A stretch of DNA of 64,000 nucleotides from Flaccisagitta enflata (Eukaryota). A model generated the notes under the pieces. The model was not told the DNA's origin. It saw only the letters and a program-made list of their open reading frames with translations, and made no database searches. The position numbers were made by a program, and so were the translations under genes. The stretch spans positions 46,004,001 through 46,068,000 of the forward strand of contig OZ231126.1 of assembly GCA_965153355.1 (NCBI GenBank), written 5' to 3'. Shown here one piece after another: positions 1 to 20,315 of the stretch; the first letter of the stretch is position 1; each line of letters starts with the position of its first letter.

Positions 1-39
1 ATTGTTAGAATTATTAATCAGACGTTCATGTTATGGACG

Positions 40-295
40 TGCTGATTCACTCGTGCAATACTATCGTTTTACTCAGAAAGACTTGCGCGATACAATGGTT
101 GTATTTAGCACGACTCGTGCAATTCTATCGTCTAAATCAGCACGACTTGCGCAATACAATGGTTGTATTGAACCCGACGCGTGCGATGGAATGGTTGTCG
201 TGCCCAATATAAAAATTGTATTGCCCAAACTTCCCTCAGTCGCGGATAAGATAAATAAAAACATTAATTAGATTTTGCACGACTACAAACTATTG
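40..295. repeat. Left subterminal repeat array (~31-bp period)
   Basis: Units GCACGACT(C/T)G(T/C)GCAAT with alternating tails CTATCGT and ACAATGGTTGTAT at ~47, 78, 107, 138 and 172. Confidence 0.75.
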
Positions 296-368
296 TGTCC
301 ACCATGTAATACCAAAACAAAAACAAAATGTATTAATCAATGTTTCACCATTGTCGTTAGGTACAGAC

Positions 369-1013
369 ATGGTGGAAATTCCTCTCGTTGACGACGATGG
401 CTCAACGTTGTCGACCCGGCGTTCCAACGGTTCTTCTCGCTCTTCCAGCGTCTCTTCTCACACTCACAGCGTTTCTTCTCGCCGTCCCAGCGTCGGAGAC
501 GATATGGACGACGAGGTGGAATCAGACTCGGTATACCGGTTCGCCGACGACCATGAAAGACGCGCATCGTTTCGTCTTTCTACCCGAGAAAAAAGATCGT
601 CCGCTAAGGTGGTGGAGGATGACGACGATGAGGAGGGTGATGCGGGAAAGGACACAAAACAAGCAAAGAAGAAGTTGGCGGGTCGGCCTTCCAAACCCAG
701 AACACCAAACAAGGCGACTTCGACTGCTAAACCCCATGGGACCACTGCGACTCCGAATAAATCGTCGGCGAAATCAGCGGTGGGGGAGGGGGGAAGGAAG
801 CGGGGAGGGAAGTCGGCGAGGGGGGGAAGAGGTGGGAAGAAATCGGCGGCGACCAAATATGAAGAAGACGCTCAGGACTTTATGAAATTTTTTGAAAACG
901 CGTCCCAAGCATCTCGGTCCAACTCGTCCAACGCGTCCAACTCCTCGGTTTCATTGGCGCCTCCCAATACCACACGAATTAGCTCGTTAAAACCGCCACC
1001 CGTTCCGTTGTAA
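369..1013 (+). CDS. Transposon-borne low-complexity protein (~214 aa): Ser/acidic N-half, Lys/Arg/Gly-rich C-half with GRP/RGG motifs
   Basis: ORF 351-1013 with first ATG at 369; GC/CpG-rich coding-like composition; no recognisable domain; may be spliced. Confidence 0.55.
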   Translation: MVEIPLVDDDGSTLSTRRSNGSSRSSSVSSHTHSVSSRRPSVGDDMDDEVESDSVYRFADDHERRASFRLSTREKRSSAKVVEDDDDEEGDAGKDTKQAKKKLAGRPSKPRTPNKATSTAKPHGTTATPNKSSAKSAVGEGGRKRGGKSARGGRGGKKSAATKYEEDAQDFMKFFENASQASRSNSSNASNSSVSLAPPNTTRISSLKPPPVPL

Positions 1014-1106
1014 ACATATGGTGTTCGTCTTCTTAGCATTCTTATTATTATGCTTTAGCTTTCAGACTTAACAATGATCATATCCGTTAATTTCCGTGGC
1101 CACCAG

Positions 1107-1340
1107 ATGGTGGTTGAACTTTCCTTCCGTGAGCTTGTCTTGATCGGGGCGTATGGTGGCGTTGGATTAGCGTTACATCGGCTTTGGGAACATCCGGGTT
1201 TTAGAGGTTAGATTGCATTTATTAATTGTCTGATTTCACTCCGTTAATGGCTATTGTCGTTGTTTATTCCGCGGCTTTTTAATTTTTTTTCGGTAGCTGC
1301 TGCCGTCAATTTCATCATTCGACGTTTGGACAGCAGATAA
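1107..1340 (+). CDS. Possible 47-aa two-exon peptide (1107-1206, 1297-1340): MVVELSFRELVLIGAYGGVGLALHRLWEHPGFRAAAVNFIIRRLDSR
   Basis: GT-AG intron 1207-1296 with a T-rich tract and compatible phase; ATG directly follows a CAG. Confidence 0.3.
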
Positions 1341-1501
1341 AAGTAACAAGTAGAGAAATCTTACAGATTTAAAAGATATAGGTAGTATACTTTTCATCAT
1401 CTCTTGTTTATTCCTGTTCTCATTCACTGTTGGTTATTGCTAACCAATTAGCAGTTTTTACATAAAACATAGTCAATGATTGCTTGCTTGCTTGCTTGAT
1501 T

Positions 1502-2076
1502 GTTCTTTGTGCATTAAGAACTGTAAAATGAAATTGTTCGCCAAATGAAAAACTTTGTAGGGACAAAGGGCCTGCCAGCCGAATTGCTCTGTCTGTATCA
1601 TGTATGTATGATTAATATTCGGACAGTATCTTTTTTGGGATGAAGTAAAGTGCTGAACAGTACAATTAATGTGCGCATGTGTGCGACTTTATTGCAAATA
1701 CGTACTGTTCTCTTTCACATGTAAAACTGGAAATAAGGACGATTTGAATCATGGGTCAATGGTAGTCATCCAACATACTTGACAGACAAGGAAGAAGTCG
1801 TGGTGGAGATCCAATGAAAAGGTAGTCGTGTTCATGTTGAAATTTGAAATGCCCTGGAAAGCAGGCACATGAATGAAGCCATTTGCTATACATATAAGAA
1901 TGTCGGGATTTCCCACTGGTCCACCGATACTTTATTTGCCGAGAGATTGGCGGCAATGACCCTGATTCCCCTGCATGTTTTTGGGTAAAGTTGAGGCAAA
2001 AGGAACATTTGGTCCAAGTTGTATATGGCAATTAGGCCCACTGCAATTACAGGTTCAGTAGAGTGGATGTCAATGT
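1502..2076 (-). pseudogene. Inverted, internally deleted, diverged copy of the transposase catalytic core
   Basis: The reverse complement aligns collinearly in blocks to 3273-4438. Example: 1551-1590 AACTTTGTAGGGACAAAGGGCCTGCCAGCCGAATTGCTCT vs revcomp(4331-4370) AACTCTGTAGGGACAAAGGGCCTGCCAACCAAATTGCTCT. Minus ORF 1756-2031 contains WTSGKS, as in the transposase. Confidence 0.9.
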
Positions 2077-2215
2077 GACAATGTGATATAATAATTGTTT
2101 TAGAACTGACCTCGTGCCTGGGTGAAATAAAATATGATAGAATAGAATGAAATAGAATAGAATAGACTAGCTTTTACAAGTATCATCAAATTTTTTTCAA
2201 ATTTTGCTGAACAGA

Positions 2216-4909: not shown

Positions 4910-4923
4910 CATAAACTTAAAAC

Positions 4924-7900
4924 ATGTCGTCGAAGCGTTCGAAATTTTACAAAGAATGTCCCAACGCCAAATACGGAGCCACCCAGCGTGGAAACAAGCG
5001 CCATCGCGATAAACTTCTTCAAGAGGAAGACGACGACTATCAACCACCCTCGAAAACATCACGTCGATCAAACTGTGATCCTCATCAGGACGAAGAGAGC
5101 AGCGAGGAGGAGGAGACGGAGGAGGAGGAGGCGCCGTCGTCACGTGGTAAGGCCGTTAGGACAACTCGTCGTCAACGAAAACGACCAACATCATCACATC
5201 TCGAGGATGACGACGGTGCAGATGTGCCTGCCTTCACCCGCACTAAGCGGTCGCGTGCAGACGTTGGAACCGGTGACAATGTCCAGGAGGAGGTGGAGGA
5301 GGAACATAGGGTTGAGGATGAAGTCATGAGTGAGGAAGATGGAGGAGAAAGGGGCCAAGTTGGCGACGTCGGCGACGGTGGAGTTGACATCGGCGGCGGC
5401 CAAGATGAAGGCATCGGTGACGCGGAAGCACAAGGGATCTTCAATCAGTCTCAACAGGAAATGAAGAGACGCCGCATCGCAAAGATCGCAACCAACAATG
5501 GGATGAGCGCAACTGCTTTGAAGAAAATGTTGGAAAAGAATCCCGAGGCAAAGAATAGTTTCCTTGCTACAAGAGGTACGTTAGTTATTATTTTGTTTTA
5601 GTGCCATTGATGCTAAATTTTCTACTCTGTAAACTGGGCCAAAGTAGTTTATTGTTTGTACTCAATTCTTCGAAATTGCTTTAATAATTATATTTAAACT
5701 CGTCTAGTAATCATGTCTCATTTCGACAAACAATCTTCCATCACACACAATGAGTAATTGAATAATTACCTCATTCCCTCCAAACAGATCCTAGTCTGTT
5801 GCCGCCAGCAGCCTATAGATCGGCAGTAGACCCGGAAAACCCTCATCGAATGTGGCTGCAGCCGCCAGAAATGCATCCCGGGCCTGACGGAAACCCAGAA
5901 CCTCCCGCTCTGCCCTACGACCAGTTGTGGTGTCCCTTCGGTGGCAACGTGGGTTACTACGACAAAGACCGGGACGTTTACCACTTTAACACACTGGGCG
6001 ATCTGCACCTCGAAGGAGATGGGAACCCGGCGACGTTTGTACCTCAACAACTGCAAGCTGCGTCCTCAGGTACAGTTGAGCTTCACTTTAGCGCACCCGC
6101 CAATAAGGCATGACCTCTTAAAAGGCATGCAAGTTATTGTTAATGAGACATTTCATAGTTAAATGCGCTCTAGTGAAGCTCAACTGTAAATCTATCTTGC
6201 TTACTGACTTCCAAATTAAAACCGTTGTATTGGTACTTATTACATCTGTTGTATTTCCTGTTTCTATTAGGAGAGCTAACGTGTAAGGAACAGTTCGAGC
6301 TGTTGGCCAAATCAGGTGGTTTGACGAAATTTATTGAAGAAGACAAAGGGCTGGATGTCGCGCTGGAGATAATCGCGAAAGCTGTGAGTTCCACGCTTAG
6401 AGAATGGTTTTAATAATTTGCGTTTCCATTGCTAATTGGTGATATCGTTGCTAATTGGTGATATCATATAACCACATTTCCCATTTATATCTCAGCATGG
6501 CATGGACAACGTGAAGAAGGCGGAGAAAGAATTCATCCTGGCCGCTTGCAAACGCCTGTTCCATAACATCCAGGTCAGTGATGGCGCGTAGTGGTGTAGT
6601 GGTGTTATTGTGAGTTGTACAGCGCTTTCCCCACATGCATCCCCACATGTTTCATCCATTTTGTTATCTACTATTTCTACTTCAGGACGCATTGTTCCAC
6701 AAAGATTGTCATTTTGCGCCTACTCAGCCCACCTACTGGGAGTTCTTCTTCGGCGTCAACCAGCATGCGTTGAGAAGGGCAGGGTTCCCGGTGTTCCAAT
6801 GGCCTAACAAAATGGCAGAAATTCCGATTTCGTGCCTAATTCGGGACCGGTAAGTTTTGAAGGCATGAATTAAGTTACGACGCAATCATTATTTGCGAAC
6901 CCAGTGCAATGATTATACAAGCATAAACCAATTTCATTCTGGACAGACTGGGCCAAAACGGAGCCAATTACTCCAAGCTCCAGAGGTCCATGAAACTGAG
7001 ACTGGCCGAGGTCAAAGCCAGACGAAAGTTGACCAAACAGGACGTTGAAGAAGTGGCCAATCTCACCAGAGACATAAAGGACAACCAACGAAAACATTAC
7101 GCAAATTGGATGGCAGTCAAAGTGAAAGGCGGCAATGAGCAGGAGGAAAGGAAGATAAAGGCTGAAGCCGGGCACCAGTAAGCTCATCTTGTTGTTGTTG
7201 TTGTTTTGGTTGTTGATGTTGTTGGTATTGTTGTTGTTATAGTAGTAATCGTAGTTGTTGTCGTGCGATGCACTATTACGTCATACTGCCATTTTTAAGA
7301 ATAATTTGCCATTTCGTTTTTCAGTGAAGATCGCGCCTCTTTGAGAAAGAAATTCTACAATGACTCAACTTACAAGAAGACGTACCTGAGATTTATGGCC
7401 GTACATGGGGGGCTGGCCGTTATTGACGAGGGAACCGCCATCTCTAAAGAAATCGTCAGCGAAGATACAGACTCCATGGATGATGAGTAAGCATACATAG
7501 TCATGCATTACAATCAATAACCGAAACATATAATAATGTTAGAAGACTGACATAATGTTCGACTATCACTTTTCCTGATAGTGTGGTGGAAACCTCACAA
7601 GCCGGGCCAGCGACAAAAACGGTATATGGAGCAATCCGCTCCCCCTCGTTGACCGCTGAGTCCGTGGGCGACAATAACGAATCATCAAGTGCCACAAATG
7701 GTTCAACCGCCACAAATGAATCATCCACCGCAAAGAACACGTCCAACGAAGCTAGGATTGGCGGCTCTCACGGCGTGAGGTGATCTTTGAATATCCTTAC
7801 CAACTACCGCACATTGATTGTATACATATAACTCACAAAATTGGTAGGTCGTCGTAAATTATATTCATTGTATTATTTCAGAGGGGTTTCCCCAAACTGT

Positions 7901-10900
7901 ACTCCCGTTCGCACAAGCCAATCACAGACCACGTTCGAAGCACTGAATAGAGGTGGCAACGAGGACAGCAATGGCCATGACGTAGCCGAAACCGACGACG
8001 CACAGTTGGACGAGTTGGTCGGGTTGGTCGAGGCGGATGATGCACAGCAACGAGACAGCGATGACAGCAACAAAATGAAAAGCCGTCCTCGGCCCCATTC
8101 AAATCGCGCTGCTGAAGCTGAAAAAGATAGGAGCAAATCGATTGGCGTGACGAAAAACAAAAGAGGGTAAACTACTACAATACACTACAGACAATTTAAA
8201 ACAACAACAACAACAACAACACCAACACCAACAACAGAGACAAGAAGAAGAAGAAGAAGAACAAGAAGAACAAGAACAAGAAGAAGAAGAAGAAGAAGAA
8301 GAAGAAGAAGAAGAAGAAGAAGAAGAACAAGAAAAACAAGAACAAGAAAAAGAAAATCAACAACAAGAAAAACAACAACCACAACAACAATAACATTCTT
8401 GATTCAGATGTGCGCCACCCATTACGCGATCGGGGCGTCGCGTCGCGAGTACCACGGGATCAATTTTCAACGCCGCTCGTGGTGGCGAAACCGTTGACGA
8501 ACCCAGCCCGCCTGACGATGCCGAAAATGATCGGTTAGGCAACCTAGTGGGTGGCTCGCGGTCCCGTAGGAAACGTGCCGTTCGTCTTCCAAGGTATTTT
8601 GGGACAAATTGCAAAATTGTTGTGTCCAGTGAAACATATTATAGAGAAATGTTTTGCATTTATTTCACTGCTTCGTATTTTGCACATTTGCAGTTCCACC
8701 GCCCGGCCTGGCAATTTGACTTCAGTGGCGTCGAGTACAGGAATGGATTCCGGTGCAATGGATCCACAGTCATGCTCAACGGATCCGATGGAAGATGTGG
8801 CTCGTCGGTGAGTTGTGACATTTGATTGTGTACTAAAACGACAAGGCATTTTCTTCATATTGTATAACCAACCAAGAAAATTTCTTTATTTTGACAGCGT
8901 TGTGCTTGGCGATATAACGGCAATGGAGACTCCAAATGAATCATCGGCACCGCGGGAAAGGCAATACGCCCCTATCGATACGCCCGTCCCAACGGCCCAA
9001 CCCCTTGCGATCGTGAAGCAAAGCTTCTTCGAGGCTGTCAGGAACAGTGCTGAAAAGGAGGGCCGCGAGGAACCCCCAGAAAACCAAATCAATGAAGTCT
9101 GGAAGAGAATTGAAGACGCGCCGAAGGATAGCCCGACTAATTTCTACGATTACGTCTACAGACCACCCGGTCATGCACGCTTCGTGGCGGCCTATCAGTG
9201 GTTGACTTGTGAATCCACACTAGTGGTAAGTTGCGCTGGTTTTGTCCATTTTGCATGTTAACTCGAAACAATTTACTTATTACTGACTGACACAATTCAT
9301 ATGTTGTAATAACGCCCTCAGTTCATCAAAATGAGTCTGGACTTTGCGTTTCCCGGCGAGGCGAGGAAGTGGCACACAACCTTCGCGAAAGAAAAGGAAC
9401 TCCTGATGAAATTGATGGAGAAGCGACCAAAACTGCCAAAGGACGAGGGCCCCGTCACCAAGGAGTATCGGGCCCAAAGAAGTTCATTCATGCTGTTATT
9501 CAGCAGTGCAGTCAACGTCCTAGGCCAAAACCCAGAAGTGGTAAGGATTAACACTGGGATGTACATATAACAGAGTCATTTTGATAGTGTCATTTTGATA
9601 GTGTCATTTTGATAGTGTCATTTTGATGATGTGATTTGGATAATTATTTGGATTTCTGACCACCCTTTCCCACCACTAGGATCCTCGCGGATATCTGCCA
9701 TTTTTGTTCGAAGTGGACTTTACGAACGAACTCATCAACTACATCTTCAAGTACCACAACATCATTCAGATCAAAGGAGAAACGCCCAACGACGTTTACG
9801 ACATAGCGGCGTCGGGCATGTCGGAATTGCAGCACTTTCTCCTTCCAAAAGCAATGGACTATTTCCCGAAGGTCGAATACGACCCTAATGGAAGACCGCA
9901 CCCTTACCACGGTCATTACGTTGAAACGTGGTTGCGGATGATGTTGTCAGTGGACCCCGTGCAGGTATTTGACATGTCTTTGTTGTGTTCATACATGTGA
10001 GAATTGCCGTTGAGATTAGACAAAAATTGTAATGAAGTTTTAAAAAAAAAAATGTATACGAATAAAACAATAAATGTATAAATGTGTAGTGTTCATATAG
10101 ATGCATAATCTCATTTTTATCCCGTTAAAAAACTCTCATCATTGTTTTTAACTTACAACAAATGATGTATTGAGTCACCTCTATCGTCTTTCAGATCATG
10201 TTCGACGTCCTCGATGACGAAACGACACTGTCCACGCGTCCAATGGTGGTGTTGTTGAGGAGGGATCCGCATACTCGCTCTAAGGATCTCGGCGTGTCTT
10301 TCGACAAGAAAATCCGCTGGAAGATATCCCCAACAGACGATGCGACGGGGACGCGAGACGTGTTTGTGAGAGGAAACCTCTACACGTACGCCATGTCCTT
10401 TCTACGGATGTACCATATTGACCACACAGATGAAAACCGCTACCGCGCCACGCTGGATGCGTACTGGAATTTTTGGGAAATGTAAGTATGAATATTGTAG
10501 TGTTGATTGTTATTGTTCTTGTTACTGTTTTGATGATTATGCGATATGATAATATATGATTATGTTGCTTCTCATTAGGTAGATATAATGGTATGGAGAT
10601 TTTACTATTTACATCATAATGCTCATATTATACTGTTAACACAGTTTGACTAATATTACACTTGTCCATGTATTGCAGCTACGCGCTCCAAATCAGTCCA
10701 GAATTACGCATAAGCCGTAGCCAGCATCGCCTGCGAAACATCAACAAACTGAGGACAGTCCAAAAACATCATCGGTCCCAAACGGAAGCCTTGATGCAAC
10801 AAGCATGTCAAAGAATCATTAGGGAGGCGATGGAGTTTCGCAGAGAAAAGGGGTTACTCGACCCGCGGTCCGAAAGTTACTACCGTCGGCTCCAAGCTAT

Positions 10901-10964
10901 TGACGAAGAAGACGAGAAAGGCGGCCTGTCAGTGGCTTACGTACGAACCACTGACGACGACTAG
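4924..10964 (+). CDS. CACTA ORF2 (TnpA-like accessory protein), 16 exons, ~1289 aa
   Basis: Exons 4924-5575, 5788-6069, 6271-6383, 6496-6573, 6686-6849, 6947-7177, 7325-7486, 7582-7779, 7882-8166, 8408-8593, 8694-8807, 8898-9225, 9322-9540, 9680-9964, 10195-10481, 10679-10964. All introns are GT-AG, phases are compatible, the total is 3870 nt with no internal stop. The C-terminal AMSFLRMYH...YWNFWEIYALQI resembles, from memory, the C-terminal motif of animal EnSpm ORF2 (SAMD3-like) proteins. Confidence 0.8.
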
Positions 10965-11190
10965 GGTGATGAATGCTGAGCTGCAGTATGTTGATGAGTA
11001 AGCGTCTCATGGCCGAGCATCAAGTGCAAAACTGCCCCAAAATTCCCGCAGCTCATCACTCATGACAGCCTTACTGCGCTCGCATCCAAGTCATCAAAAT
11101 GCTAAACTTATTTCTCATGGTTCTATTTCCTGTTTTTTCTCAACTTATTTATCATGTTTAGGTAGTTTCTAGTTTCCCCCTGTAGATAAA

Positions 11191-11770
11191 ATGTCTTCAG
11201 AGTCGGCCTCAGAGTCTTCCGAGTCCACCTCCCCTTCCATACATGAGACAAAACGCTCGTGCGAGCGGCTTTTCTTTGCCATCAGACGTAAGAAAAAAAA
11301 ATTAAAGGAAAAGGAGAACATCGAGGAAATTGTTCGACAAACGTTGTCAGACATACTAAATGTCGTAGGTAAGAAGTGGTCAAGATTTTAAATTCTTTTT
11401 ATCCTTTAGCCAAACCATATTATTAATCATTAGTCATTCTACCCATTTTTTTCCCGAGACTTTTTTAGCTTTAATAGAAATGACATATCCATATTGTTGC
11501 AAGGTGTATGAACATGTAAGCAGATGTAGTTTGCACAGTATGGCACTGTCAATTATTTTGTAGCCAAAAAAGTCTCTGGCAAAAGTGGGTGACTTTGCAA
11601 AAACTCTTTTTTTAGCTGCACCCTCATCCTCCCCGACATTGGTGACAAGCACTGATGGTGAAATGACGGGGGACTCCTCCGACTCTGAGGTTTCCGACTT
11701 TTGGAGCGTCGGTTCAAAAAGAATGAGGACCTGGATTAGGTACTCTCGAGCGTTAGTCACGGGTGATTGA
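11191..11770 (+). CDS. Small two-exon protein (~110 aa; exons 11191-11368, 11616-11770), Ser-rich with an NLS-like RRKKKKLK
   Basis: GTAAG donor at 11369 and TTTTTTTAG acceptor at 11615; phase 1 joins the two ORF-track segments. Confidence 0.55.
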
Positions 11771-12176
11771 TCCTCCTCTACTCCATCGCCAGATATAGGC
11801 ACTGTCAATTCCGATTGATTTCTTCCGTTGTGGCGTTGTTACCTTGTGGCGTGGTTTCTGTGGCGTTCCAGCGATTTCTTTGTTTTCGTTTTTGGCGTTT
11901 TTCGTCTTCCAGCGTTTTCGGTTATTCCTTCTAGATGTTTAGTGATAATATAGATAGTAGTATACCGCGATAGTACTTTTACGTTCGTACCCATTTGTCA
12001 TTTTCATTTGGCGGGGCGAAAGCTAAAATCAGAAAATTTCCCGTAATCGCGAAAATTGTCATCAAAATAAACTGCGTTTGTGATACATTTCTGATTTTTA
12101 GTCCGATCAAAGCTTCAAGCTGTGATAAATTCTACTCATTTGTTTTTTGACAGGCAGGCACAACTAAATTCCAAAT

Positions 12177-13482
12177 ATGTCTTTGATGTTGCCTCGAGAA
12201 ATGCTAGACAATCTCATCCTGGATGTACGCTGCCTCATATGTTTGGCTCTGCCAACCGACGCACACATTTGCCGGAAATGCCACAAACCCTTTTGCTACA
12301 GCTGCATCGGCACCGCTTTCGAAGTCTACGACGTCGCGTCCTGCCCACACTGCAGGTAATGTCTGTTACAGCGATGCTTTGTACATATGTTGTAACTATT
12401 CTTTAACTGTTGTATTTTGTTCCCAATGGGATGATATTTGTTATGATTGCTACTGCACTTATGAAAATGAACCGGAATGTCATATGGTTTAACTTGCTGG
12501 GGGCCAACACCAACATGGTGGTCAAAGGCTCAAAGCTGCCAGTTAGCATCCTCTGCCAAGAAGAAGAGGACTATGACGTTTTGTTATTCCAAATTTCACT
12601 CGATTTTTTTGTGTATGTTCATCCCCTCCAACAAAACAAAAGCGTGCCTTAAAATTGAATGGTTTTCTAATTTATTTGTTCATACTTTTTTATTCACAAT
12701 GTTAATATGGTTTTTCTGTAGTCATGAGAATGGCGATATTTATTTGGGTGAGAAACTGGTTTTTTCTTATTTATTAGGCAGGTTTGGGCGAACTTAATCA
12801 AAAAAACGGCAATATGCAAATGAGGTTTTTATCTACTGAGACTAGCCGAAAAAAAAACTTGAAAGCAACACATGTCTGTTTTTAGATGCGTCCTCGCATG
12901 TCTATAAGAGGGTCTGTCCCTTAGTAGGTATGTATGTATGTATGTATGTATGTTGGTTGGTTGGTTGGTTCATATTTGTTATGCTCGCAACTGTACTTAT
13001 AACATATGCTATTTTCATGGGCAGGTTGGAGCTTCCCTTGGAGGGTTTTGTGCGTTCTCCAACGTTCAACATCATTGCTAAGACGCTGAAGAACGCCAAA
13101 CCGGCCTGCGTCGTCCATGACTATGCAGAGATCGAGATCTTTTGTGTTGACTGTTCCAAGGAGGGTTGCCGCTCATGCTGGATGTAAGTCATGTTTGTGT
13201 TTGTTGTTGGTGGGGGAGGCGTGTGGGGTTGGGTGATGGAATGGACTACTGTATGTAAAAATTTAGTTGTTTGAGATTAATATTTTGAGTAGCGGATATG
13301 TAAAGAAGTTTTCATGTGATTGGTTCTACAGAGAAAAACATTCCGAACACTACGTGGTTCCGCTGGAAGCCAAGGACAAAGTGGCGCCTTCACCGACGAC
13401 GCCGCCATCATCGCCATCGTCGCCGCCGCCACCTCCGCCGTCTCCGCCGGCGCCGGCGCCACCATCAGCCTCAGCAAATTGA
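12177..13482 (+). CDS. Mini-TRIM 1: TRIM37-like RING + B-box2 + Pro/Ser tail (162 aa), putative E3 ubiquitin ligase
   Basis: Exons 12177-12355, 13025-13183, 13332-13482. RING CLICLALPTDAHICRKCHKPFCYSC...CPHCR has Cys spacing like TRIM37 [25 protein letters not shown]...CPHCR. B-box CVVH..FCVDC..GCRSCWIEKHSEHYVVPL. Confidence 0.85.
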
Positions 13483-13558
13483 ACTCGTTTCGTTGTCAGT
13501 AGTCGGGCAGTCATGGTTAAGCAAAGCGTATGATGCGTATGCGTATGATGCGTCCAGA

Positions 13559-13672
13559 GCCTTCACGCTCCGTCAGGGAGACCGCGTCGCGCAGCTCATC
13601 TTAGAGACGTTTGACAATTTGGATTCCATGCGCGTTTTGTCCATTGGGGCTTCTAGCAACAGTGGACGTTAA
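13559..13672 (+). pseudogene. dUTPase C-terminal remnant
   Basis: AFTLRQGDRVAQLILETF...SNSGR* matches trimeric dUTPase motif IV (GDRIAQL). Motifs I-III are absent and motif V is degenerate. Confidence 0.65.
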
Positions 13673-14078
13673 CGTCGACGTTTTGCTTCGCAAGCCAATG
13701 CTGTCGGGAACCCATGGACTAAATTGAATGGGTTGCGACATTAGTGAAAGCGTTTTGTGCAATGCTAACAGTTAGTATCCTGTGATAACTGTTTTGTCCT
13801 AGTTAGTATATAACAATTATATTTGCCTCGACCGTCTTGTTTGCCGCCGTTTTAAAAAGCAAAGGCCTGGCCTAAGATAAGTATTACATTTGTGTCGATA
13901 ATGTTGAGCAACCATTTCATGTTCTCATCCAATTTTGGTTTTTGTCACTTCCAGTTTTCGTTTCTGTTCCGTTTTTCGTGTTTCGTTTCCGTTTTTGGAT
14001 ATTGTTGCCATTGATTTTTCACTGAAACATGGTTTGTGTTTCCCAGGCACGATTACGTAAATCAATATCAAAACAGAC

Positions 14079-14847
14079 ATGCCTTTGTTGATGACGAGAA
14101 AGCGCATGGAAGAGGCGGAAAAGGAGTTTCGATGCGGCATCTGCTTCTTGCTGCCAACTGAGCCGCACTTATGCGAGGTATGCGTCCAAACCTATTGCTA
14201 CGACTGTGTCGCGACGTTGATGGTCATGTACGAGCACAAGCGCTGTCCATATTGCAGGTATTATATGTTATAGGTATGATTGTTGTTATAGGAAATGAAT
14301 TAGTAACAAGATATTGCTGAATCGTTTGCAATACTTTGATCATATTTTACGCCCCTAGGTGAAACTAGCAGATTGCCGCAATACTTTTTACATATGGCAT
14401 TATCACGCGCAGGTCGGAGGTTACCATGGAATCGTTTCTACCCGCTCCGTTCATGACCACCCTGATTGAGGTTTTCAAGACAGTGAAGCCCGCCTGCGCG
14501 ATCCATAACGTCAAACCGCTGTCGATGTATTGCACAATCTGCGAGCTCGAGGGTTGCGACGCTTGCTGGCAGTAAGTCCTGTTTGTTTTTGTTGTACAGG
14601 ATAGGTATGAATACATTCCTAGTTTAAGATATGTTTCGGTTGCCTTGTCAGTGTAATTTGTGCTATTTTCACTTGACATGGTTTGGTAATTGATGTTTCC
14701 TCTCATCGGCTTTACAGGGAGCGTCATGTTGGACATCACATTGTTCCACATGCACCCGTTCAGCGGCCTTCAGTGTCGACGCCGCCGCCGCCGCCCGCCT
14801 CGCCATCATCGCCGGTAACGGGCTACGGAAGCGATGAAGTGGATTAA
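14079..14847 (+). CDS. Mini-TRIM 2: TRIM37-like RING + B-box2 + Pro/Ser tail (155 aa)
   Basis: Exons 14079-14257, 14413-14571, 14718-14847. RING FRCGIC..HLCEVC..YCYDC..CPYCR; B-box CAIH..YCTIC..GCDACWQERHVGHHIVP. Exons 1 and 2 have the same lengths (179/159 nt) as in paralog 1. Confidence 0.85.
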
Positions 14848-15327
14848 AAATTGTAAAAGATTAACGGGATACCGAAAGTATTGCCCCGTTAAAATTTCTA
14901 GTATGACATTGGGCCGTTATTGTACTGATAGTTGCAGTGTTAACAACTATCGCGCATCGTTTTGTTTGTTTACTGTATTTCTGTTTTCCTGGCGTTAGTC
15001 GTCCAGTCATAGTTTAACACAGCGTAGTGACTGTATGATGGACTGTTATGCCACACGTTATGGCATTGTAATATTGGGATCGTTACATTCGTTTTCTTTA
15101 TTTCTGTTTCCAGTGTGATATTTCTGTTTTGTTATTATTAAAAACCCAAACAACAGAAACTACAACCATTTATTTCCCACGTTTTGTTGATTTGTGTAAG
15201 CAACAAATTTGTTCGTGTCTGCTTTTGCTAGTAGCTGTGATAATTTTGTTAGCTCAGTCAGAACAATGGGCGTTCGTTTAAAATGATTATAGTAACTGTC
15301 AGATCCAGTTTAATGGTCTTGGCAAGA

Positions 15328-15558
15328 TTAGTCACGTACACGCGACTGTACTCCTTGCCGTGTCGGTCGGTCGGTCGGTCGGTCGGTCGGTCGGTCGGTC
15401 GGTCGGTCGGTCGGTCGGTCGGTCGGTCAGTTGGCCGGCCGGTCGGTCGGTCCGTCCGTCCATGCGTCTGTCCGTCACATTGATAAATTCCGCCCTAATT
15501 TTGCAGTACTGCTCCTGCCGAACCGTCCGCGACTGGATTGCCGTGTATCCGGCCTTGT
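15328..15558 (+). mobile_element. Helentron-associated (HINE/DINE-like) non-autonomous element nested in the CACTA element
   Basis: TTAGTCRCGT..ACGCGACT 5' hairpin, (GTCG)n microsatellite and 3' end GCCGTGTATCCGGCCTTGT, all shared with many copies in the window. Confidence 0.65.
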
Positions 15559-15636
15559 ATTAGTGAACTGCTATAGCCAGCAAGGAAACTACCCTGCGCT
15601 CAGGGTAGTTTCTTTGCTGGTTTTTTTTTACTGGGT

Positions 15637-15990
15637 TCTCGGCTATACAATTTTTGTATTCGGCTATACAATTATTGTATTTATTATGGGTTCTGGCGCT
15701 GAAATACAATTTTTGTATTTTTTTTTCCTGCTCGCTGCCTGCTCCTTTTTTATTCAATTATTGTATAAATTATGGAATACAATAAATAAATATCGTCGCC
15801 TTTTTTTATACAATAATTAAATATCGTCGTTTTTTTATACAATTTTTGTTTTTTCCTATACAATTGCTATACAATCGTCATACAACTCGTGTATTTGCTG
15901 TACAACTGCTGTACAACTGCTGTACAATTCGTTGTATTATCTAAAATACAATAACGTCCGTTGCTGTACAACACGACGATATTTATTTAT
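15637..15990. repeat. Right subterminal repeat region
   Basis: Repeated ATACAA-N3-TTGTAT palindromes, TACAACTGCTG and AAATATCGTCG motifs. Confidence 0.7.
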
Positions 15991-16363
15991 TGTATTTTTG
16001 GAAATTATTTTGAGTGTATGCAAACAGATTATTGGACTAATTGAACGAAAAACTGTGTCGTGCGCTTGATTGCAGGGGGTGTATAAAATTGAGTCGCTTT
16101 TGATTCCCCTCCCCCTGCCTTTGATTTTCTTCCCCGCGTCGCGTGGGATCACGTTTTAAAATATCTATGATTTTCTTTCCCATGGAGCTATAAAACAGTG
16201 TACTCTTTTTTTGTTATATGAACGTCATTTTTTGGACTAGCCTTCAAAGTTCTTAAATTTTCAGCAGTTTCAAGGCTCCAACGTTCCTAAATTGTTCTTA
16301 ATTCAAACGCAGTTTTTAACCTTCAGTTAACAATGTTCTTAATTAGTTAAGATTTATCATTAA

Positions 16364-17259
16364 GGCTTACATTTCCTCAAGATAGGCGACTAATTGAAAA
16401 TCTGTTTTCATGATGATTGGACTAATATGCGTACTGAGGGTCTGTATTTCAATTTTCGACTGTATAGCACTGGCCTGACCCGAATTACAAAGCAAAAACA
16501 AAATCAAGAATGCTTTGGCTAAGTTAAGGGGAAAAAATGAAAATTTTTAATGTATCAGTGCAGGATATGAACAACAGACTAATGAATCCGTCTGTCCTTC
16601 CTTAATCACAAATTCTCCGTCCAATGTCAATGTTTCAAAAAAATCAATTTCTATTCTCACCTTGCGCATTATCACAGCGCTCATGTCAGGCAATCTACTC
16701 ACTAGCCGCAGACGCTGACTGCTTTCATGAATTGTGCTTTAAAACTGATAGTTAGGGAGGCTAAAAAAAAGTTGATGAAAAAAATTGTTCATGAATTGTA
16801 TCTTTACCGTGTATTTTCTTTCGATTTTCATTTTAATGAATGACAAAATGATGGTAATTTTCTAGACGCTCGTTAGCCTGACTGGGGCAACGTAGGAAGC
16901 TGAAATTTTTACTGAAGATAGAGAAGACATGTGGCCAGGGTAGACCTGGAACAAATTCCCAAAAAAGCTACTAGCTATTGGCTACATTTTACAGATTTCT
17001 TCTTGGATTTATTGTATGTAAAATAATAAAATTGGAATTTTTTTACAGGTCTACCCTGGCCACATGTCTTGTCTATCTTCAATAAAAATTTCAGCTTCCT
17101 CCGTTGCCCCAGTCAGGCTAGCGAGCGTCTGAAAAATTGCCTATATTTGGGTTTTTTCAATTTTCTGAAATGTTTTGAAGGGGTTTCTTACACTAGTATT
17201 TGACATTCTATAAAAGAAAAAAAAATTCAGGGTAACTTCATTTTGAAGCAACGATAGCC
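16364..17259. mobile_element. MITE with TTAA flanks and GG..CC ends (Kolobok-like), with an internal ~85-bp inverted repeat
   Basis: TTAA|GGCTTACATTTCCTCAAGAT ... ATTTTGAAGCAACGATAGCC|TTAA; internal inverted repeat 16864-16948 / 17046-17130. Confidence 0.5.
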
Positions 17260-17593
17260 TTAAGGAGAAAATAAAGGAAAATGTCAATAAGCAGCAGAAA
17301 TGTCAATAAGCAGCAGATTTAAACGTTTTAAGTGAATTAAGATCAATGAAATTAGAAAGATACATACGATATAAAGTGAGACATTATTTGCTGAATTCAA
17401 AAAATACAGAGTATATATAATTATCTATTTACAATTAAAAAAAAGCCCAAAAAAAGATGTTCTTAGATTTTTAAGATTATAAACCTTATGTTTTCAAATT
17501 TTTCAAAAAATAAAGCCTTCCAATGTTCTTAGCATGTTCTTGAATTTTTGACGATTTGAAGCCTAGCGTTCTTATAAACTTGGTTCTCAAAAA

Positions 17594-17800
17594 ACAAGGC
17601 CAGATATACGGCTACCCCAGTCGCGTGCGGGTGGGCAGGGGCCATATTTGAGGTCAGTGGAGTATTTGGGCAGGAGCGGTAGAGCCAAAAACCCCATAAA
17701 CGCTGAAAAAGTAAAGTGTGACGGATCGACAGACAGACGGACGGACCGACGGACGGACCGACAAAGCGGGGTGTAGAGTCGCGTAGCACGCGACTAAAAA
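17594..17800 (-). mobile_element. HINE-like element, family A
   Basis: ACAAGGCCAGATATACGGC...(GACG/GACC)n...GAGTCGCGTAGCACGCGACTAAAAA. Confidence 0.7.
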
Positions 17801-20315
17801 GTGTAGTTAAGGTTTAGATAGTGTTGAATTGTGTTTTACTAATCAGTTTTTATCATTTATGATTTGGTACTGCCAAAAGATATATTTTCCCCGAATCTTG
17901 TTTCTCTTTCCCCCCCTTTCATTTCCTTCCCCATCTCCAAACCCCCCCCCCCCGTGGAGGGGGGGAACTCAATTTTTTACAGTTAAGCCTGATTGTAAAT
18001 TGATATGAGGGATAAAATTTTGCTGATTGAATGTTGGTGATGCAATTTGATCAGTTCAAGTATTTCGATTCCATCTTACCTGATTGTCATGGTCCGAGCG
18101 CTTAGCTCCATTCAGAGGTGTGAGAAATGACAGCGGTGTGACCATTTCAAGGACAGACACCGTTTTTTGTGTCATTATAAAGTCAGACTGGTCTTTCATT
18201 CGTCCAAATTCAGCGGAAATTGCTAGTATCATTTTGCTTAGAGTTAGCGCCGCAAAGATATTCATTTTTATGATATAGGAATATTACTCTTCAAAACTCT
18301 TCAAAATATGCGTTCTCTGGTAGAACCAGTCTGCAATGAAATCCTCGCCGAGGCAAATCCGTCTTTTTCCAGGTTTTTGTGTTTTGGCAGACCCACAGCC
18401 TTGAAATTCTCAAGTGATACATCGAAACGTGTTCGTGGATTTGGTTGGCGGACTAAATCGATTGTTGCCGACAGAGTTGTCGAAGCGGTTGACCGCTTGC
18501 GATCGGGAGGATAGGATAGCTACTAGCTTTTCAACTACAAATGGACGCTAAGCGGTGGAAGCGGCGTGAAAATTGACCGCTTCCACAACTCATGTGCGAA
18601 ACACAAGTCCCTTCTGATATGTTTTTTTTTGTAATTCAAAGGATGTAGGGATGTACGGACGGACAAATGTATGGACGTACAGACAGACAGATTCCCCCTG
18701 TGTTCCACAGGACTTCGTCTCCTTTGGGGCCGCTGCCCAAAAAACAAGGTCGTTTACATTATCCATTCAAATATGAATGGTGATCAATACGGATTCAGTA
18801 TTGATGTGGGTTTTTGTCATGATGCTTGTCATGACATTTGCATGGATTGTGATACTGTTGTTATTGTTGTCAATACCAGTAATGGCGGCTATCGCCGTGA
18901 TAAAAAAGGGTTGTAAGCATTGGACACTTTTCACCAAGCTTTTATCTTCAGTCCCTGCAGTTTTTTTTTATTTGTTAGATCAGATTAAGAGTAATTGTAT
19001 GTATTGATTGCAATGAAAATCAGAGAAAAATAGAACTGTGCCAAATGAGCTAGATGGGCTAAAATACTTTCTTGTATTTGCATGCTCAATTAAAACATTT
19101 ATTCTATTTATTCATCCTACAAAAAATCAGAAAAAAAGGTCGCCCAAAGGCAATATGTGGTCAGCAATACCCGTTGCCCTGCTTTGAGTGATTGTGAATT
19201 GGAGGGAGGGGAAGCAGGGCAGCGGTTCCAAAGGGGACAAAGTCCTATAGAACACAGGGGGACTTTTGTTCATCCTGCCTGAAGAAAGGGATGAGATGCT
19301 ATCGAGGGCTAACTGAAGGCCTTCTAGAGCTCAAACTGAGGTCTAAGAAGGCTGACTTGAGGCTTGGGAGAACTGGATTAAGGCTTGAAATCAGAGGACT
19401 TATTTGAAGCCTAGGAGCAATAAATTCCGGCTTAGATGGCTGATTTGAGGCCTGAAAGGCCTAAAAAACACCTCAAAATGAGCTGCCTATGCTCATAAAC
19501 ATGTTTCTTGTATTTGCATTAGGGATGTGGAAGTGATTGACCTCTTCTGTTCTGGTGGGTGGGATAGCTACTGGTATTTGAAATACAAAATGGAAGCAAA
19601 AGCGCAAGCGGAGGCGGTGGAAGCGGCATGCATGCTCAAACAAACTTAAATACACTCCTTTATTGATCCTACTTAAAATCATAAAAAATTGAAAATTAAT
19701 TTGAATTTTTCCTAAAGAAATTTTAAAATTCATAACGCAAAAATATTTGCCATAGAGCGCTCTGCTTGGCACCAAATAAAAGAGAATTATCAACTTTACT
19801 TACCCTATCGATTTCATCGGAGGACACATTTGGCCAATCAAAAGACGAAACTTTCACATAAGAAAATGAAAACCCTGTTTTTCTCAAAAAGTCGAAGATT
19901 GACTTCGACTTTTTCCCGATAAAACAAAACTATGCAATCCCTGGCAACTGCACCAAGCAACTCCAAGGCAACCCCAGACATCCCCGAGCACCTCAGGATG
20001 TAATGGCTTATTTGACTTTACACCTGTAGATTCACCATGAACATTTGTCACAAAACCCAATGATCTTATCAAGTTTTTTTCTCCCATTCTTTTGAATCAA
20101 GCATGTTTGTTCTTTAGTGCAAAAATGCAGGGGTGTCACCTCTAAATCACCATCTTTGCCTGTTTCGCCTATGCAGAATAACAGTGATACGCACACAATA
20201 CAACTCGTCATGACAGCAGGTGGTAAACAAGCAGAAGAACACCGAGACGAGAGAACCAAGAAGGATGAAAAAGTTTATCTAAAACGAGAAGAAGTACATG
20301 AATATTCCACCTTTG

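What the first reader, a model, noticed from the sequence alone, without database searches (positions are those of the whole stretch)
12177..14847. Tandem pair of transposon-borne mini-TRIM (TRIM37-like RING + B-box, no coiled coil) E3 ligase genes
Seen: two intact spliced genes with identical exon 1/2 lengths and intron phases but clearly diverged proteins. All Zn ligands are kept and each ends in a short Pro/Ser tail. They lie between ORF2 and the right subterminal repeats. Known: TRIM37 has an atypical Cys-rich RING followed by B-box, coiled coil and MATH domains; viruses use RING ligases (e.g. HSV ICP0) and some transposons use anti-silencing proteins (VANDAL VANC) against host defence. 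Inference: retained function after duplication suggests element-serving effectors, such as ligases or dominant-negative decoys against host silencing factors.
Basis: partly seen in the sequence, partly recalled or inferred. Interest (0 to 1): 0.82.

Follow-up and report, generated by a model that had tools for sequence, protein, structure and literature searches.

The report
Paired RING–B-box genes near a transposase
Two neighbouring small genes encode stripped-down ubiquitin-ligase-like proteins that lie beside, and probably inside, a large DNA transposon of a marine organism; if so, this jumping gene carries its own protein-tagging enzymes.

Summary
Two intact three-exon genes (162 and 155 aa) sit in tandem. 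They share exon lengths (179 and 159 nt), intron phases and GT-AG introns. The proteins are 36% identical, yet all 16 zinc ligands are kept.

Each protein is a RING plus a B-box2 followed by a Pro/Ser tail, with no coiled coil or MATH domain. The RING has the spacing of TRIM37 and matches its solved RING. Diverged relatives with the same exon boundaries occur in marine metagenome assemblies.

About 7 kb upstream lies an intact 897-aa transposase with the D..D..C(2)C..H(3)H..E signature of the EnSpm/CACTA-Plavaka (CMCT) clade. Arrays of one 13-nt palindrome bracket the 16-kb, single-strand gene cluster.

"Transposon-borne" is therefore plausible but not shown. I found no terminal inverted repeat or target-site duplication. 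I could not fetch any other copy that links transposase and RING genes. Copy number is unresolved.

I found no splicing or expression support: contigs from RNA libraries are unspliced and no deeper than intergenic DNA. The anti-silencing role is untested speculation. The closest precedent is the RING fused to Chapaev/RAG1 transposases.

The parts
12177..12355 (+). g1 exon 1: start codon and the whole RING (C-x2-C-x9-C-x2-C-x4-C-x2-C-x12-C-x2-C). It ends in AG of the Arg codon that follows the last Cys.
   Evidence: Pfam RING E 0.0061, below cut-off; TRIM37 RING 3lrq E 8.7e-5
13025..13183 (+). g1 exon 2: linker and the first six ligands of the B-box2 (C-x2-H-x8-C-x2-C-x4-C-x2-C)
   Evidence: Pfam zf-B_box E 0.0018, 18.8 bits against cut-off 24.1
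13332..13482 (+). g1 exon 3: the last two B-box ligands (H-x2-H), the Pro/Ser tail and the stop codon
14079..14257 (+). g2 exon 1: start codon and RING with the same spacing; the fourth ligand is Cys and no His is available there
14413..14571 (+). g2 exon 2: linker and most of the B-box2
   Evidence: 40% identical to P0022 residues 83-144, E 2e-6
14718..14847 (+). g2 exon 3: end of the B-box, Pro/Ser tail and stop codon
2216..4909 (+). ORF1: uninterrupted 897-aa (from the first Met) DDE transposase of the EnSpm/CACTA-Plavaka (CMCT) kind, with an in-frame poly-Gly microsatellite
   Evidence: motif definition taken from PMC12730594
8815..9261 (+). In the window it has no ATG at the position where its relatives start.
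   Evidence: relatives at 70% and 52% identity over the full length; no Pfam or Atlas hit
369..1013 (+). ORF of 214 aa, rich in Ser/Arg/Lys/Gly and low in complexity. It may or may not be an element gene.
   Evidence: no Pfam hit
49..225 (.). Left array of 32-nt units carrying the palindrome TACAATnnTTGTA (3 sites). A candidate 5' end, CACTC, lies at 48.
15640..15997 (.). Right array with the same palindrome (5 sites) and a perfect 23-nt inverted repeat (15776-15798 / 15974-15996). A candidate 3' end, GAGTG, lies at 16012-16016.
1473..2076 (-). Inverted, internally deleted copy (84-89% complementary) of ORF1 segments from 3273-4503, lying just upstream of ORF1
   Evidence: I1, I3, I4, I14, I25
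15330..15558 (.). High-copy repeat with a (GTCG)n tract, inserted between g2 and the right array. A piece of a high-copy repeat also lies in g1 intron 1 (about 12879-12970).
   Evidence: (loose ends and joints at 15558, 12879 and 12902)

Best explanation
g1 and g2 are old tandem paralogues. Each encodes a protein of about 160 aa with a TRIM-type RING, a linker of about 28 residues, a B-box2 and a disordered Pro/Ser tail.

The RING has the all-Cys central spacing of the TRIM37 RING. It keeps a hydrophobic residue after the first Cys and an Arg directly after the last Cys. These are the usual E2-contact and 'linchpin' positions; that criterion is recalled, not taken from a call.

The proteins most likely work as small E3 ubiquitin ligases, or as RING/B-box modules that assemble with larger TRIM-like proteins. 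This step is inferred.

The genes lie at the 3' end of a cluster of about 16 kb in which every gene is on the + strand. The cluster is headed by an intact CMCT (EnSpm/CACTA-Plavaka-like) DDE transposase and bracketed by arrays of one 13-nt palindrome. The most likely reading is that they are accessory (cargo) genes of a large CACTA-like DNA transposon. They would have been captured from the 5' part (RING + B-box exons) of a host TRIM37-like gene and then kept by selection. This step is also inferred; linkage in other copies is not shown.

What they ubiquitinate is unknown. The candidates are the transposase itself, as with the RAG1 RING, or a host factor.
For: Gene models and paralogy.

Zinc scaffold: 16 of 16 ligands are kept at 25% non-ligand identity, p 4e-9.

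RING and B-box identity:
- Per-exon Pfam hits are sub-threshold: 0 of 4 exon pieces reach the cut-off.
- 4 of 8 relatives scanned pass a curated RING or B-box cut-off.
- The relative P0022 matches the solved TRIM21 RING-B-box (5olm, E 7.3e-9, residues 40-143 to 17-117) and the TRIM37 RING (3lrq, E 1.3e-8).
- g1 against 3lrq gives E 8.7e-5, the top of 28 matches.
- 2 of 10 longer profile hits have RING+B-box+MATH and 1 has RING+B-box.

Family: 48 proteins at E<=1e-3 and 6 at E<=1e-10. In the 14-row alignment 7 of 8 RING Cys are invariant, and ORF calls break at the same exon-1 boundary.

Constraint: g1 exon 1 is 46/67 identical to P0062, against 26/59 for the translated upstream flank (Fisher p 0.007).

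Transposase:
- 9 relatives at 42-98% identity and 2 at 22%.
- The 2 distant ones give sub-threshold Transposase_21 hits (E 0.003-0.005), and P0010 also a Plavaka hit (E 0.047).
- Plavaka clusters appear among the Atlas look-alikes.
- D, D, C-x2-C, H-x3-H and E are invariant across 10 sequences. That is the CMCT signature as described in PMC12730594 (passages read).

Element-like frame:
- The palindrome gives 19 matches against 1.55 expected. 8 of 12 distinct sites fall in the two arrays at 91-220 and 15646-15850.
- ORF 8815-9261 has relatives at 70% and 52%. ORF1 has tiers of 69-78% and 53-57% and RING exon 1 has 68% and about 46%. These parallel tiers are what one would expect if the whole unit diverged together.
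Against: - No terminal inverted repeat links the two ends beyond the short palindrome. The candidate ends CACTC (48) and GAGTG (16016) are only 5 nt long, and their flanks (ATT and TAT) are not a target-site duplication.
- The left end may lie outside the window.
- No other copy with both transposase and RING genes could be examined. The JGI metagenome scan gave 1 locus, which was spurious. The viral-contig scans gave 0. No genome is held.
- The parallel identity tiers would also arise from orthologous host loci in related species.
- Contig depth is flat over 1-15341 in all 4 runs, without a single-copy yardstick, so multi-copy status is not shown. Only 13341-15341 is about 2-2.5 times deeper.
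- ORF1 itself has no Pfam hit at E<=0.1.
- No spliced joint for any of the four introns appears among the 15 of 501 joints shown. RNA-library contigs cover introns and intergenic DNA at the same low depth, which fits DNA carry-over.
- dN/dS between the paralogues (0.64) is not informative because dS is about 1, i.e. saturated.
Confidence: 0.5

Rival explanations
1. The two genes are ordinary host genes. They belong to a lineage-specific family of small RING-B-box proteins, a kind of expansion common for TRIM-like genes. They merely lie next to a transposase gene in a repeat-rich region, and the motif arrays belong to other repeats.
For: - No TIR or TSD was found.
- Everything to the right of 15342 is high-copy repeat. 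The right array itself is about 3.5-9 times deeper than the body in run X5: 7,000-19,000 against about 2,000 (tables 3 and 4). The left array is not: the 1-667 bin is 2,763.
- The right array contains its own perfect 23-nt inverted repeat, so it could be a separate small element.
- The g2 region is about 2-2.5 times deeper than the rest of the cluster, so it does not simply share the copy number of ORF1.
- The relatives could be orthologues in other species.
Against: - All recognisable ORFs from 369 to 14847 are on one strand and tightly spaced.
- The same rare palindrome clusters on both sides of the cluster, and only 4 of its 12 sites lie anywhere else in the 64 kb.
- ORF1, ORF 8815-9261 and RING exon 1 show matching identity tiers among metagenome relatives.
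- Homology of the 68% g1 relative extends into the upstream non-coding DNA as far as 11826, as expected for copies of a larger unit.
Confidence: 0.3
2. The genes are fragments of a host TRIM37-like gene picked up by a CACTA-like element (transduplication). They are now non-functional passengers, open only by chance or recency.
For: - The genes contain only the 5' modules (RING + B-box) of the TRIM37 architecture, and no MATH or coiled-coil exon is in the window.
- No expression evidence was found.
- The window copy carries CpG-transition-type private changes in ORF1 (3725, 4047, 4340) and in g1 and g2 (12300, 14740).
- ORF 8815-9261 lacks the start codon its relatives have.
Against: - The two paralogues are saturated at synonymous sites and 25% identical at non-ligand positions, yet they keep 16 of 16 ligands, both reading frames, both intron positions and the Arg after the last Cys.
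- Across the 14-row family alignment, 7 of 8 RING Cys are invariant.
- The exon is more conserved than its flank (p 0.007).
Confidence: 0.1
3. The gene models are artefacts: chance open frames in Cys-rich, low-complexity DNA.
For: Per-exon Pfam scores are below the curated cut-offs, and there is no transcript support.
Against: - Two independent copies have identical exon structure.
- 48 profile hits were found, including relatives that pass the curated cut-offs.
- A relative matches the solved TRIM21 RING-B-box at E 7e-9.
Confidence: 0.02

Closest known systems
TRIM37 (RING-B-box2-coiled coil-MATH E3 ligase)
   Same: The RING has the same ligand spacing, and the fourth ligand is Cys rather than His. 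3lrq is the best (g1) or second best (g2) solved match. A B-box2 follows after a similar linker. The family profile retrieves RING+B-box+MATH proteins.
   Different: There is no coiled coil and no MATH domain. The proteins are about 160 aa with a Pro/Ser tail, so they are neither TRIM37 orthologues nor tripartite proteins. Similarity outside the RING is weak: no tblastn match to the B-box at E<=1.
TRIM21 RING-B-box2 module (PDB 5olm)
   Same: The relative P0022 aligns over RING, linker and B-box in one stretch (E 7.3e-9). The RING-to-B-box module is therefore of the TRIM type.
   Different: TRIM21 continues with a coiled coil and a PRY-SPRY domain, which give it dimerisation and substrate binding. 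Neither is present here.
RING finger fused to Chapaev transposases and to RAG1 (Transib/CMC lineage)
   Same: A RING with E3 activity is associated with a transposase of the same broad clade. PMC4411706 (passages read) states that in two Chapaev subgroups a RING follows the Chapa domain, as in RAG1.
   Different: There the RING is a domain of the transposase. Here it is a separate gene, duplicated in tandem, and carries a B-box. ORF1 here has no RING.
Accessory genes of DNA transposons proposed to counter silencing: TET/JBP dioxygenases in fungal EnSpm, Plavaka, KDZ and other elements; VANC of Arabidopsis VANDAL
   Same: These are extra genes carried inside cut-and-paste transposons, including CMCT-clade ones. 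PMC12730594 was read in abstract and passages. The VANC papers were seen only in search listings and abstracts.
   Different: The biochemistry is different (dioxygenase; sequence-specific DNA-binding protein). For those genes, carriage inside complete elements with TIRs and TSDs was shown. Here it is not.
Viral RING E3 ligases such as herpesvirus ICP0
   Same: A parasite-encoded RING ligase. The equine herpesvirus RING (1chc) appears only as a weak match (E 0.7-1.4).
   Different: There is no specific similarity and ICP0 has no B-box. The analogy is functional only and untested.

Membership tests
TRIM / RBCC proteins | N-terminal RING finger with eight Zn ligands | tested here: met
   Eight Cys are at RING spacing in both genes. 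Per-exon Pfam hits are sub-threshold. Relatives P0023, P0076 and P0014 pass curated RING cut-offs. PDB RING matches.
TRIM / RBCC proteins | B-box zinc finger after the RING | tested here: met
   C-x2-H-x8-C-x2-C-x4-C-x2-C-x4-H-x2-H is present in both genes, split by intron 2. Pfam zf-B_box gives 18.8 and 19.2 bits on exon 2 alone, below the 24.1 cut-off, and 27.6 bits in relative P0022.
TRIM / RBCC proteins | Coiled coil after the B-box (the third part of the tripartite motif) | tested here: not met
   The proteins end about 40 residues after the B-box in a Pro/Ser-rich tail. No further exon matched TRIM37-like proteins.
TRIM37 | C-terminal MATH/TRAF domain | tested here: not met
   tblastn of the RING+B-box+MATH proteins P0033 and P0046 against the window matched only the two RING exons.
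TRIM37 | RING with a Cys at the fourth ligand (C-x2-C-x9-C-x2-C-x4-C-x2-C...) | tested here: met
   Alignments to 3lrq. The same spacing is seen in P0027, P0033 and P0046.
CMCT clade transposases (EnSpm/CACTA, Mirage, Chapaev, Transib, Plavaka) | [quoted passage not shown] | tested here: met
   The invariant columns are D56, D145, C165-x2-C168, H385-x3-H389 and E409 in an alignment of 10 sequences that includes two at 20% identity. Which acidic residues are catalytic is inferred.
CMCT clade transposases | Significant match to a curated family model (Transposase_21 / Plavaka) | tested here: inconclusive
   ORF1 has no such hit. The distant relatives P0010 and P0011 score 16.6 and 17.3 bits against a cut-off of 28.6, and P0010 scores E 0.047 for Plavaka. 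Atlas look-alikes include Plavaka clusters.
EnSpm/CACTA-type transposon (complete element) | Termini 5'-CA(C)..(G)TG-3' as inverted repeats | tested here: inconclusive
   CACTC is at 48 and GAGTG at 16012-16016. There is no longer inverted match. The left end may be outside the window.
EnSpm/CACTA-type transposon (complete element) | 2-5 bp target-site duplication | tested here: not met
   The flanks of the candidate ends are ATT and TAT. This holds only for that one candidate pair of ends.
EnSpm/CACTA-type transposon (complete element) | Subterminal arrays of a short motif at both ends | tested here: met
   TACAATnnTTGTA gives 19 matches against 1.55 expected. Distinct sites: 3 at 91-220, 5 at 15646-15850, 4 elsewhere.
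Transposon cargo gene | Found with the transposase, between the same termini, in independent copies | not testable with these tools
Active RING E3 ligase | Hydrophobic E2-contact residue after the first Cys and a basic 'linchpin' residue after the last Cys (criterion recalled, not from a call) | tested here: met
   Ile21 and Arg60 are present in both proteins. The Arg is kept in 11 of the 12 relatives in alignment A2. Activity itself was not tested.

The most novel reading that the evidence does not exclude
A CACTA/Plavaka-like DNA transposon of a marine eukaryote carries its own pair of free-standing RING-B-box E3 ligases, captured from a TRIM37-like host gene. It uses them for its own benefit, either to tag a host silencing or restriction factor (or to poison a host TRIM as a coiled-coil-less decoy), or to control its transposase as the RAG1 RING does. 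That would be an element-encoded ubiquitin-system effector in a cut-and-paste transposon.
Probability: 0.18. Interest if true: 0.75.

Novelty: new variant of a known kind. Interest (0 to 1): 0.45.

Why it matters
Cut-and-paste transposons of eukaryotes rarely carry genes beyond the transposase and a DNA-binding partner. The few known extras, such as VANC or the fungal TET/JBP genes, are read as counter-defence.

In the passages I read (PMC4411706, 2015), RING fingers were said to be encoded only in Chapaev-type elements and RAG1, where they are fused to the transposase. A separate, duplicated and selectively maintained RING-B-box gene pair inside a CMCT-clade element would add the ubiquitin system to the toolkit of such transposons. 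It would also give a second, independent link between this clade and RING ligases.

If the genes prove to be host genes, the finding shrinks to a new family of coiled-coil-less, TRIM37-like RING-B-box proteins in a marine organism. That would be of modest interest.

Tried and rejected
- Whole-genome search of the window's assembly: none is held.
- Earlier scan notes: nothing by place, sequence or words.
- Homologue search with g1 exon 1 among longer proteins: 4 candidates, none significant. No spliced full-length database protein of g1 or g2 was found.
- JGI metagenome scan with the RING alignment. A 4-sequence alignment gave 107 pattern matches and 1 tblastn-confirmed locus (L001). That locus is spurious: 55% G+C, a 30-aa chance match, no Cys pattern and no other similarity to the element.
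- Viral-contig scans with the transposase and RING alignments: 36 and 45 pattern matches, 0 confirmed.
- Search for a TIR: blastn of 1-400 against 15500-16400 found only the short palindrome. The reverse complement of the left terminal 12-mer has no counterpart near the right array; window-wide there were 33 matches at up to 3 mismatches against 46 expected.
- A second copy in the window: none. Only an 80-nt high-copy repeat recurs.
- RNA support: the RNA-library runs X11 and X14 gave only unspliced, low-depth contigs. No cover-based claim about expression is made.
- Copy number from contig depth: no single-copy yardstick lay within the 20 kb laid, so it is left open.
- Pfam on eight further ORFs in 5766-10964 and on ORFs at 255, 4921, 8403, 8812, 10795 and 11173: nothing meaningful.
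- Atlas search with the ORF2 relative P0099: no usable hit.
- An alignment meant for a structure prediction of P0022 put the B-box exons onto the RING. No fold was run, and no complex prediction was run.
- The TTTCGTTT motif upstream of both genes is not enriched in the window: 7 matches against 4.7 expected.
- Literature: four searches for a transposon-encoded RING/B-box or E3 ligase turned up only the Chapaev/RAG1 RING (PMC4411706). The library is partial and supplements were not seen.
Full report
**1. What is in the sequence**

The region 12177-14847 holds two head-to-tail genes on the + strand.
- g1 has exons 12177-12355, 13025-13183 and 13332-13482 (162 aa).
- g2 has exons 14079-14257, 14413-14571 and 14718-14847 (155 aa).

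Exon 1 is 179 nt and exon 2 is 159 nt in both genes, so the intron phases agree. All four introns are GT..AG, and neither spliced frame has a stop.

g1 intron 1 is long (669 nt against 155 nt in g2). It contains a microsatellite and a piece of a high-copy repeat.

The proteins are 36% identical and align without gaps for 129 residues. In that stretch 44 of 129 positions are identical, and these include all 16 predicted zinc ligands. Non-ligand identity is 25%, and the chance of keeping all 16 is 4e-9.

At the DNA level only the exons align (about 62%), plus one 44-nt stretch after each stop codon (13487-13530 and 14983-15026, 73%). The duplication is therefore old. The Nei-Gojobori estimates are dN 0.63 and dS about 1.0. 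They are saturated and say little.

**2. What the proteins are**

Exon 1 encodes a RING with the spacing C-x2-C-x9-C-x2-C-x4-C-x2-C-x12-C-x2-C. Exons 2 and 3 encode a B-box2 (C-x2-H-x8-C-x2-C-x4-C-x2-C-x4-H-x2-H) that is split by intron 2. A Pro/Ser-rich tail of about 40 residues follows.

I could only search exon by exon, and none of the 4 exon pieces reaches a Pfam cut-off (RING E 0.0014-0.0061; B-box E 0.0014-0.0018). The classification therefore rests on relatives and on solved structures.
- A profile of the two RING exons found 48 proteins at E<=1e-3 among 1.84 billion.
- Of 8 relatives scanned, 4 pass a curated RING or B-box cut-off.
- The relative P0022 carries RING, linker and B-box in one open frame that ends exactly where exon 2 ends. 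It matches the solved TRIM21 RING-B-box (5olm, E 7.3e-9) and the TRIM37 RING (3lrq, E 1.3e-8).
- P0022 also reads straight across the predicted exon 1/2 junction of g1 and g2. This is comparative support for that splice.

**3. Is the RING TRIM37-like?**

Yes, as far as the RING goes.
- 3lrq is the best solved match for g1 (E 8.7e-5, top of 28) and the second best for g2 (E 0.029; COP1 is first at 0.019).
- The fourth ligand is Cys, as in the aligned TRIM37 RING. g2 has no His available at that place.
- Of 10 longer profile hits scanned, 2 have RING+B-box+MATH (the TRIM37 architecture), 1 has RING+B-box, 1 has RING+WD40, 5 have a RING but no B-box or MATH, and 1 has nothing.

The proteins are not TRIM37, and they are not tripartite. 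There is no coiled coil, and no MATH or further exon matched anywhere in the window.

Ile21 after the first Cys and Arg60 right after the last Cys are kept in both proteins. By recalled criteria these are the E2-contact and linchpin positions. That favours an active ligase over a dead decoy, but activity was not tested.

**4. The family**

The relatives are exon-level ORF calls on ENA and Logan metagenome contigs. None carries a name.
- The P0012 cluster is g2-like, with 3 conservative replacements in the 60 coding residues. The same variants (for example at 14159 and 14162) are the only form seen in three of the runs laid, so this is probably the g2 allele of those populations.
- The P0013 cluster is g1-like, about 68% identical.
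- P0014 and P0017 are about 46% identical. P0018, P0019, P0022 and P0023 are 35-46% identical.

In the 14-row alignment 7 of 8 RING Cys are invariant and the eighth is kept in 13 of 14 rows. Many ORF calls run into unrelated sequence right after the Arg that ends exon 1, which fits a shared intron position.

For the g1-like cluster, homology runs on into the upstream non-coding DNA as far as 11826. The exon is better conserved than that flank: 46/67 against 26/59 identical translated positions, p 0.007. Together with the ligand pattern, this argues for purifying selection on the zinc scaffold.

**5. The surroundings**

From 369 to 14847 every sizeable ORF is on the + strand.

ORF1 (2216-4909, 897 aa from the first Met) has no Pfam hit. 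It has 9 relatives at 42-98% identity and 2 at 22%.
- The two distant relatives give sub-threshold Transposase_21 (tnp2/CACTA) hits, and one also gives a Plavaka hit.
- Atlas look-alikes include Plavaka clusters.
- In a 10-sequence alignment the invariant residues include D, D, C-x2-C, H-x3-H and E, in that order. PMC12730594 (passages read) gives this as the signature of the EnSpm-Mirage-Chapaev-Transib-Plavaka clade.

I therefore read ORF1 as an intact CMCT-type transposase.

ORF 8815-9261 is conserved over its full length in two relatives, at 70% and 52%. It has no recognisable family.

A 13-nt palindrome, TACAATnnTTGTA, occurs 19 times against 1.55 expected. Of its 12 distinct sites, 3 lie at 91-220, 5 at 15646-15850 and 4 elsewhere. 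These arrays bracket the cluster, much as the subterminal repeats of CACTA elements do.

**6. Why "transposon-borne" is not yet shown**

- The two ends share nothing longer than the palindrome.
- The only candidate termini are CACTC at 48 and GAGTG at 16012-16016. They fit the clade's CA..TG rule but are 5 nt long, and their flanks (ATT, TAT) are not a duplication. The left end may lie beyond the window.
I could therefore not look at any other copy.
- The matching identity tiers fit co-divergence of one unit: ORF1 at 69-78% and 53-57%, ORF 8815-9261 at 70% and 52%, and RING exon 1 at 68% and about 46%. They would equally arise from orthologous loci in related species.

The stretch is held by 20 of 24 listed runs from 10 studies, mostly marine metagenomes. 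Four runs were laid on 1-20000.
- Contig depth is flat over 1-15341, at about 7-10 in X1 and about 2,000 in X5.
- It is about 2-2.5 times higher over 13341-15341.
- It is far higher to the right of 15342, where high-copy repeats begin. Loose ends and joints at 15558 occur in three of the four runs.
- The right array is about 3.5-9 times deeper than the body in X5. The left array is not.
- No single-copy yardstick lay in the stretch, so copy number stays open.

**7. Expression**

The two RNA-library runs give contigs that are collinear with the DNA through the introns. Examples are 14085-14786 across both g2 introns and 12981-13402 across g1 intron 2. Their depth is as low as over intergenic DNA. 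None of the 15 joints shown, out of 501, is one of the four predicted splices. This looks like DNA carry-over. It is neither support for expression nor evidence against it.

**8. Mechanism and rivals**

My best reading, at about 0.5, has three parts.
- The genes encode small RING-B-box E3 ligases or TRIM-like assembly modules.
- They were captured from the 5' part of a TRIM37-like host gene.
- They are kept as accessory genes of a large CACTA/Plavaka-like transposon.

The rivals are:
- host genes that merely neighbour the transposase (0.3);
- a decaying captured fragment (0.1), which the ligand conservation argues against;
- a gene-model artefact (0.02).

I put about 0.18 on any element-serving effector role.

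**9. Comparison with what is known**

The nearest precedent is the RING fused to the transposase in two Chapaev subgroups and in RAG1. PMC4411706 (passages read) described RING fingers as otherwise absent from known transposable elements in 2015.

Fungal EnSpm, Plavaka and other elements carry TET/JBP genes that are thought to counter methylation (PMC12730594). VANDAL elements carry VANC (listings and abstracts only).

Four literature searches found no free-standing RING-B-box gene reported in a DNA transposon. The library is partial.

**10. Verdict**

- The domain reading and the TRIM37-like RING are supported.
- Cargo status is plausible but unproven.
- Function and expression are untested.
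- If cargo status holds, this is a new variant of two known kinds, transposon accessory genes and RING-B-box ligases. It is of moderate interest.

Noticed in passing
window 1473-2076 (- strand) against 3273-4503: An inverted, internally deleted copy of part of the transposase ORF lies just upstream of ORF1. It consists of five blocks, 81-89% complementary. Read-through transcription could give a hairpin RNA, a layout reminiscent (from recall) of maize Mu killer. It could be a source of small RNAs against the element.
   Followed up: partly
window 3725, 4047, 4340 (ORF1); 12300 (g1); 14740 (g2): The window copy has private replacements at Arg positions conserved in most of the other family members: R>C, R>H and R>W (codons TGT, CAT, TGG). 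g1 has S42 where the runs have G, and g2 has I121 where the runs have V. All are changes of the CpG>TpG or CpG>CpA kind. The runs laid have C at 3725 and G at 4047. This suggests methylation-type decay, or simply allelic variation, in the assembled individual.
   Followed up: partly
window 2712-2854: An in-frame (GGT)n microsatellite gives a poly-Gly tract inside the transposase ORF. Its length differs among the 98%-identical relatives P0078 and P0082.
   Followed up: partly
window 15330-15558; also 17593-17800, 18874 onward, 12879-12970, and 22013-47296 (short pieces): A very high-copy repeat with a (GTCG)n tract and a conserved 80-nt end. It has sharp boundaries in three of the four runs (loose ends at 15558), and its depth is about 1,000-3,500 times that of the cluster body. 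It is SINE-like. One piece sits in g1 intron 1.
   Followed up: partly
window 15776-15798 / 15974-15996: A perfect 23-nt inverted repeat lies inside the right motif array, 175 nt apart. Contig depth there in X5 is about 8-9 times that of the cluster body (table 4). It may be a small non-autonomous derivative that shares the element's subterminal motifs.
   Followed up: no
window 16846-16962 / 17032-17148: A 117-nt inverted repeat (88% complementary) with a 69-nt spacer, in high-copy DNA. It looks like a foldback or MITE-like element.
   Followed up: no
window 13487-13530 and 14983-15026: The only non-coding similarity between the two gene units is a 44-nt stretch (73% identical) shortly after each stop codon. 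It may be a shared 3'-UTR element.
   Followed up: no
window 13638-13776 and 14863-14924: Variants lacking 137 nt (with GT..AG ends) and 60 nt are seen in contigs of DNA runs as well as RNA-library runs. They are therefore indel alleles or a second copy, not introns (table 5).
   Followed up: no
window 8815-9261: The conserved ORF has GTG where both relatives (P0099, P0100) start with Met, and a stop codon lies directly upstream. Either the start is lost in this copy or the ORF is an internal exon.
   Followed up: partly
window 51358-53493 (- strand): Two adjacent long ORFs (514 and 196 aa) made of C2H2 zinc-finger repeats, probably one host zinc-finger gene.
   Followed up: no
window 41457-42359 (- strand): A 300-aa ORF with a reverse-transcriptase domain (RVT_1, E 5e-14). 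It is a non-LTR retrotransposon fragment.
   Followed up: no
window 11884, 13956, 13981: TTTCGTTT occurs within 300 nt upstream of both start codons, in T-rich tracts. It is not enriched in the window as a whole (7 matches against 4.7 expected).
   Followed up: yes
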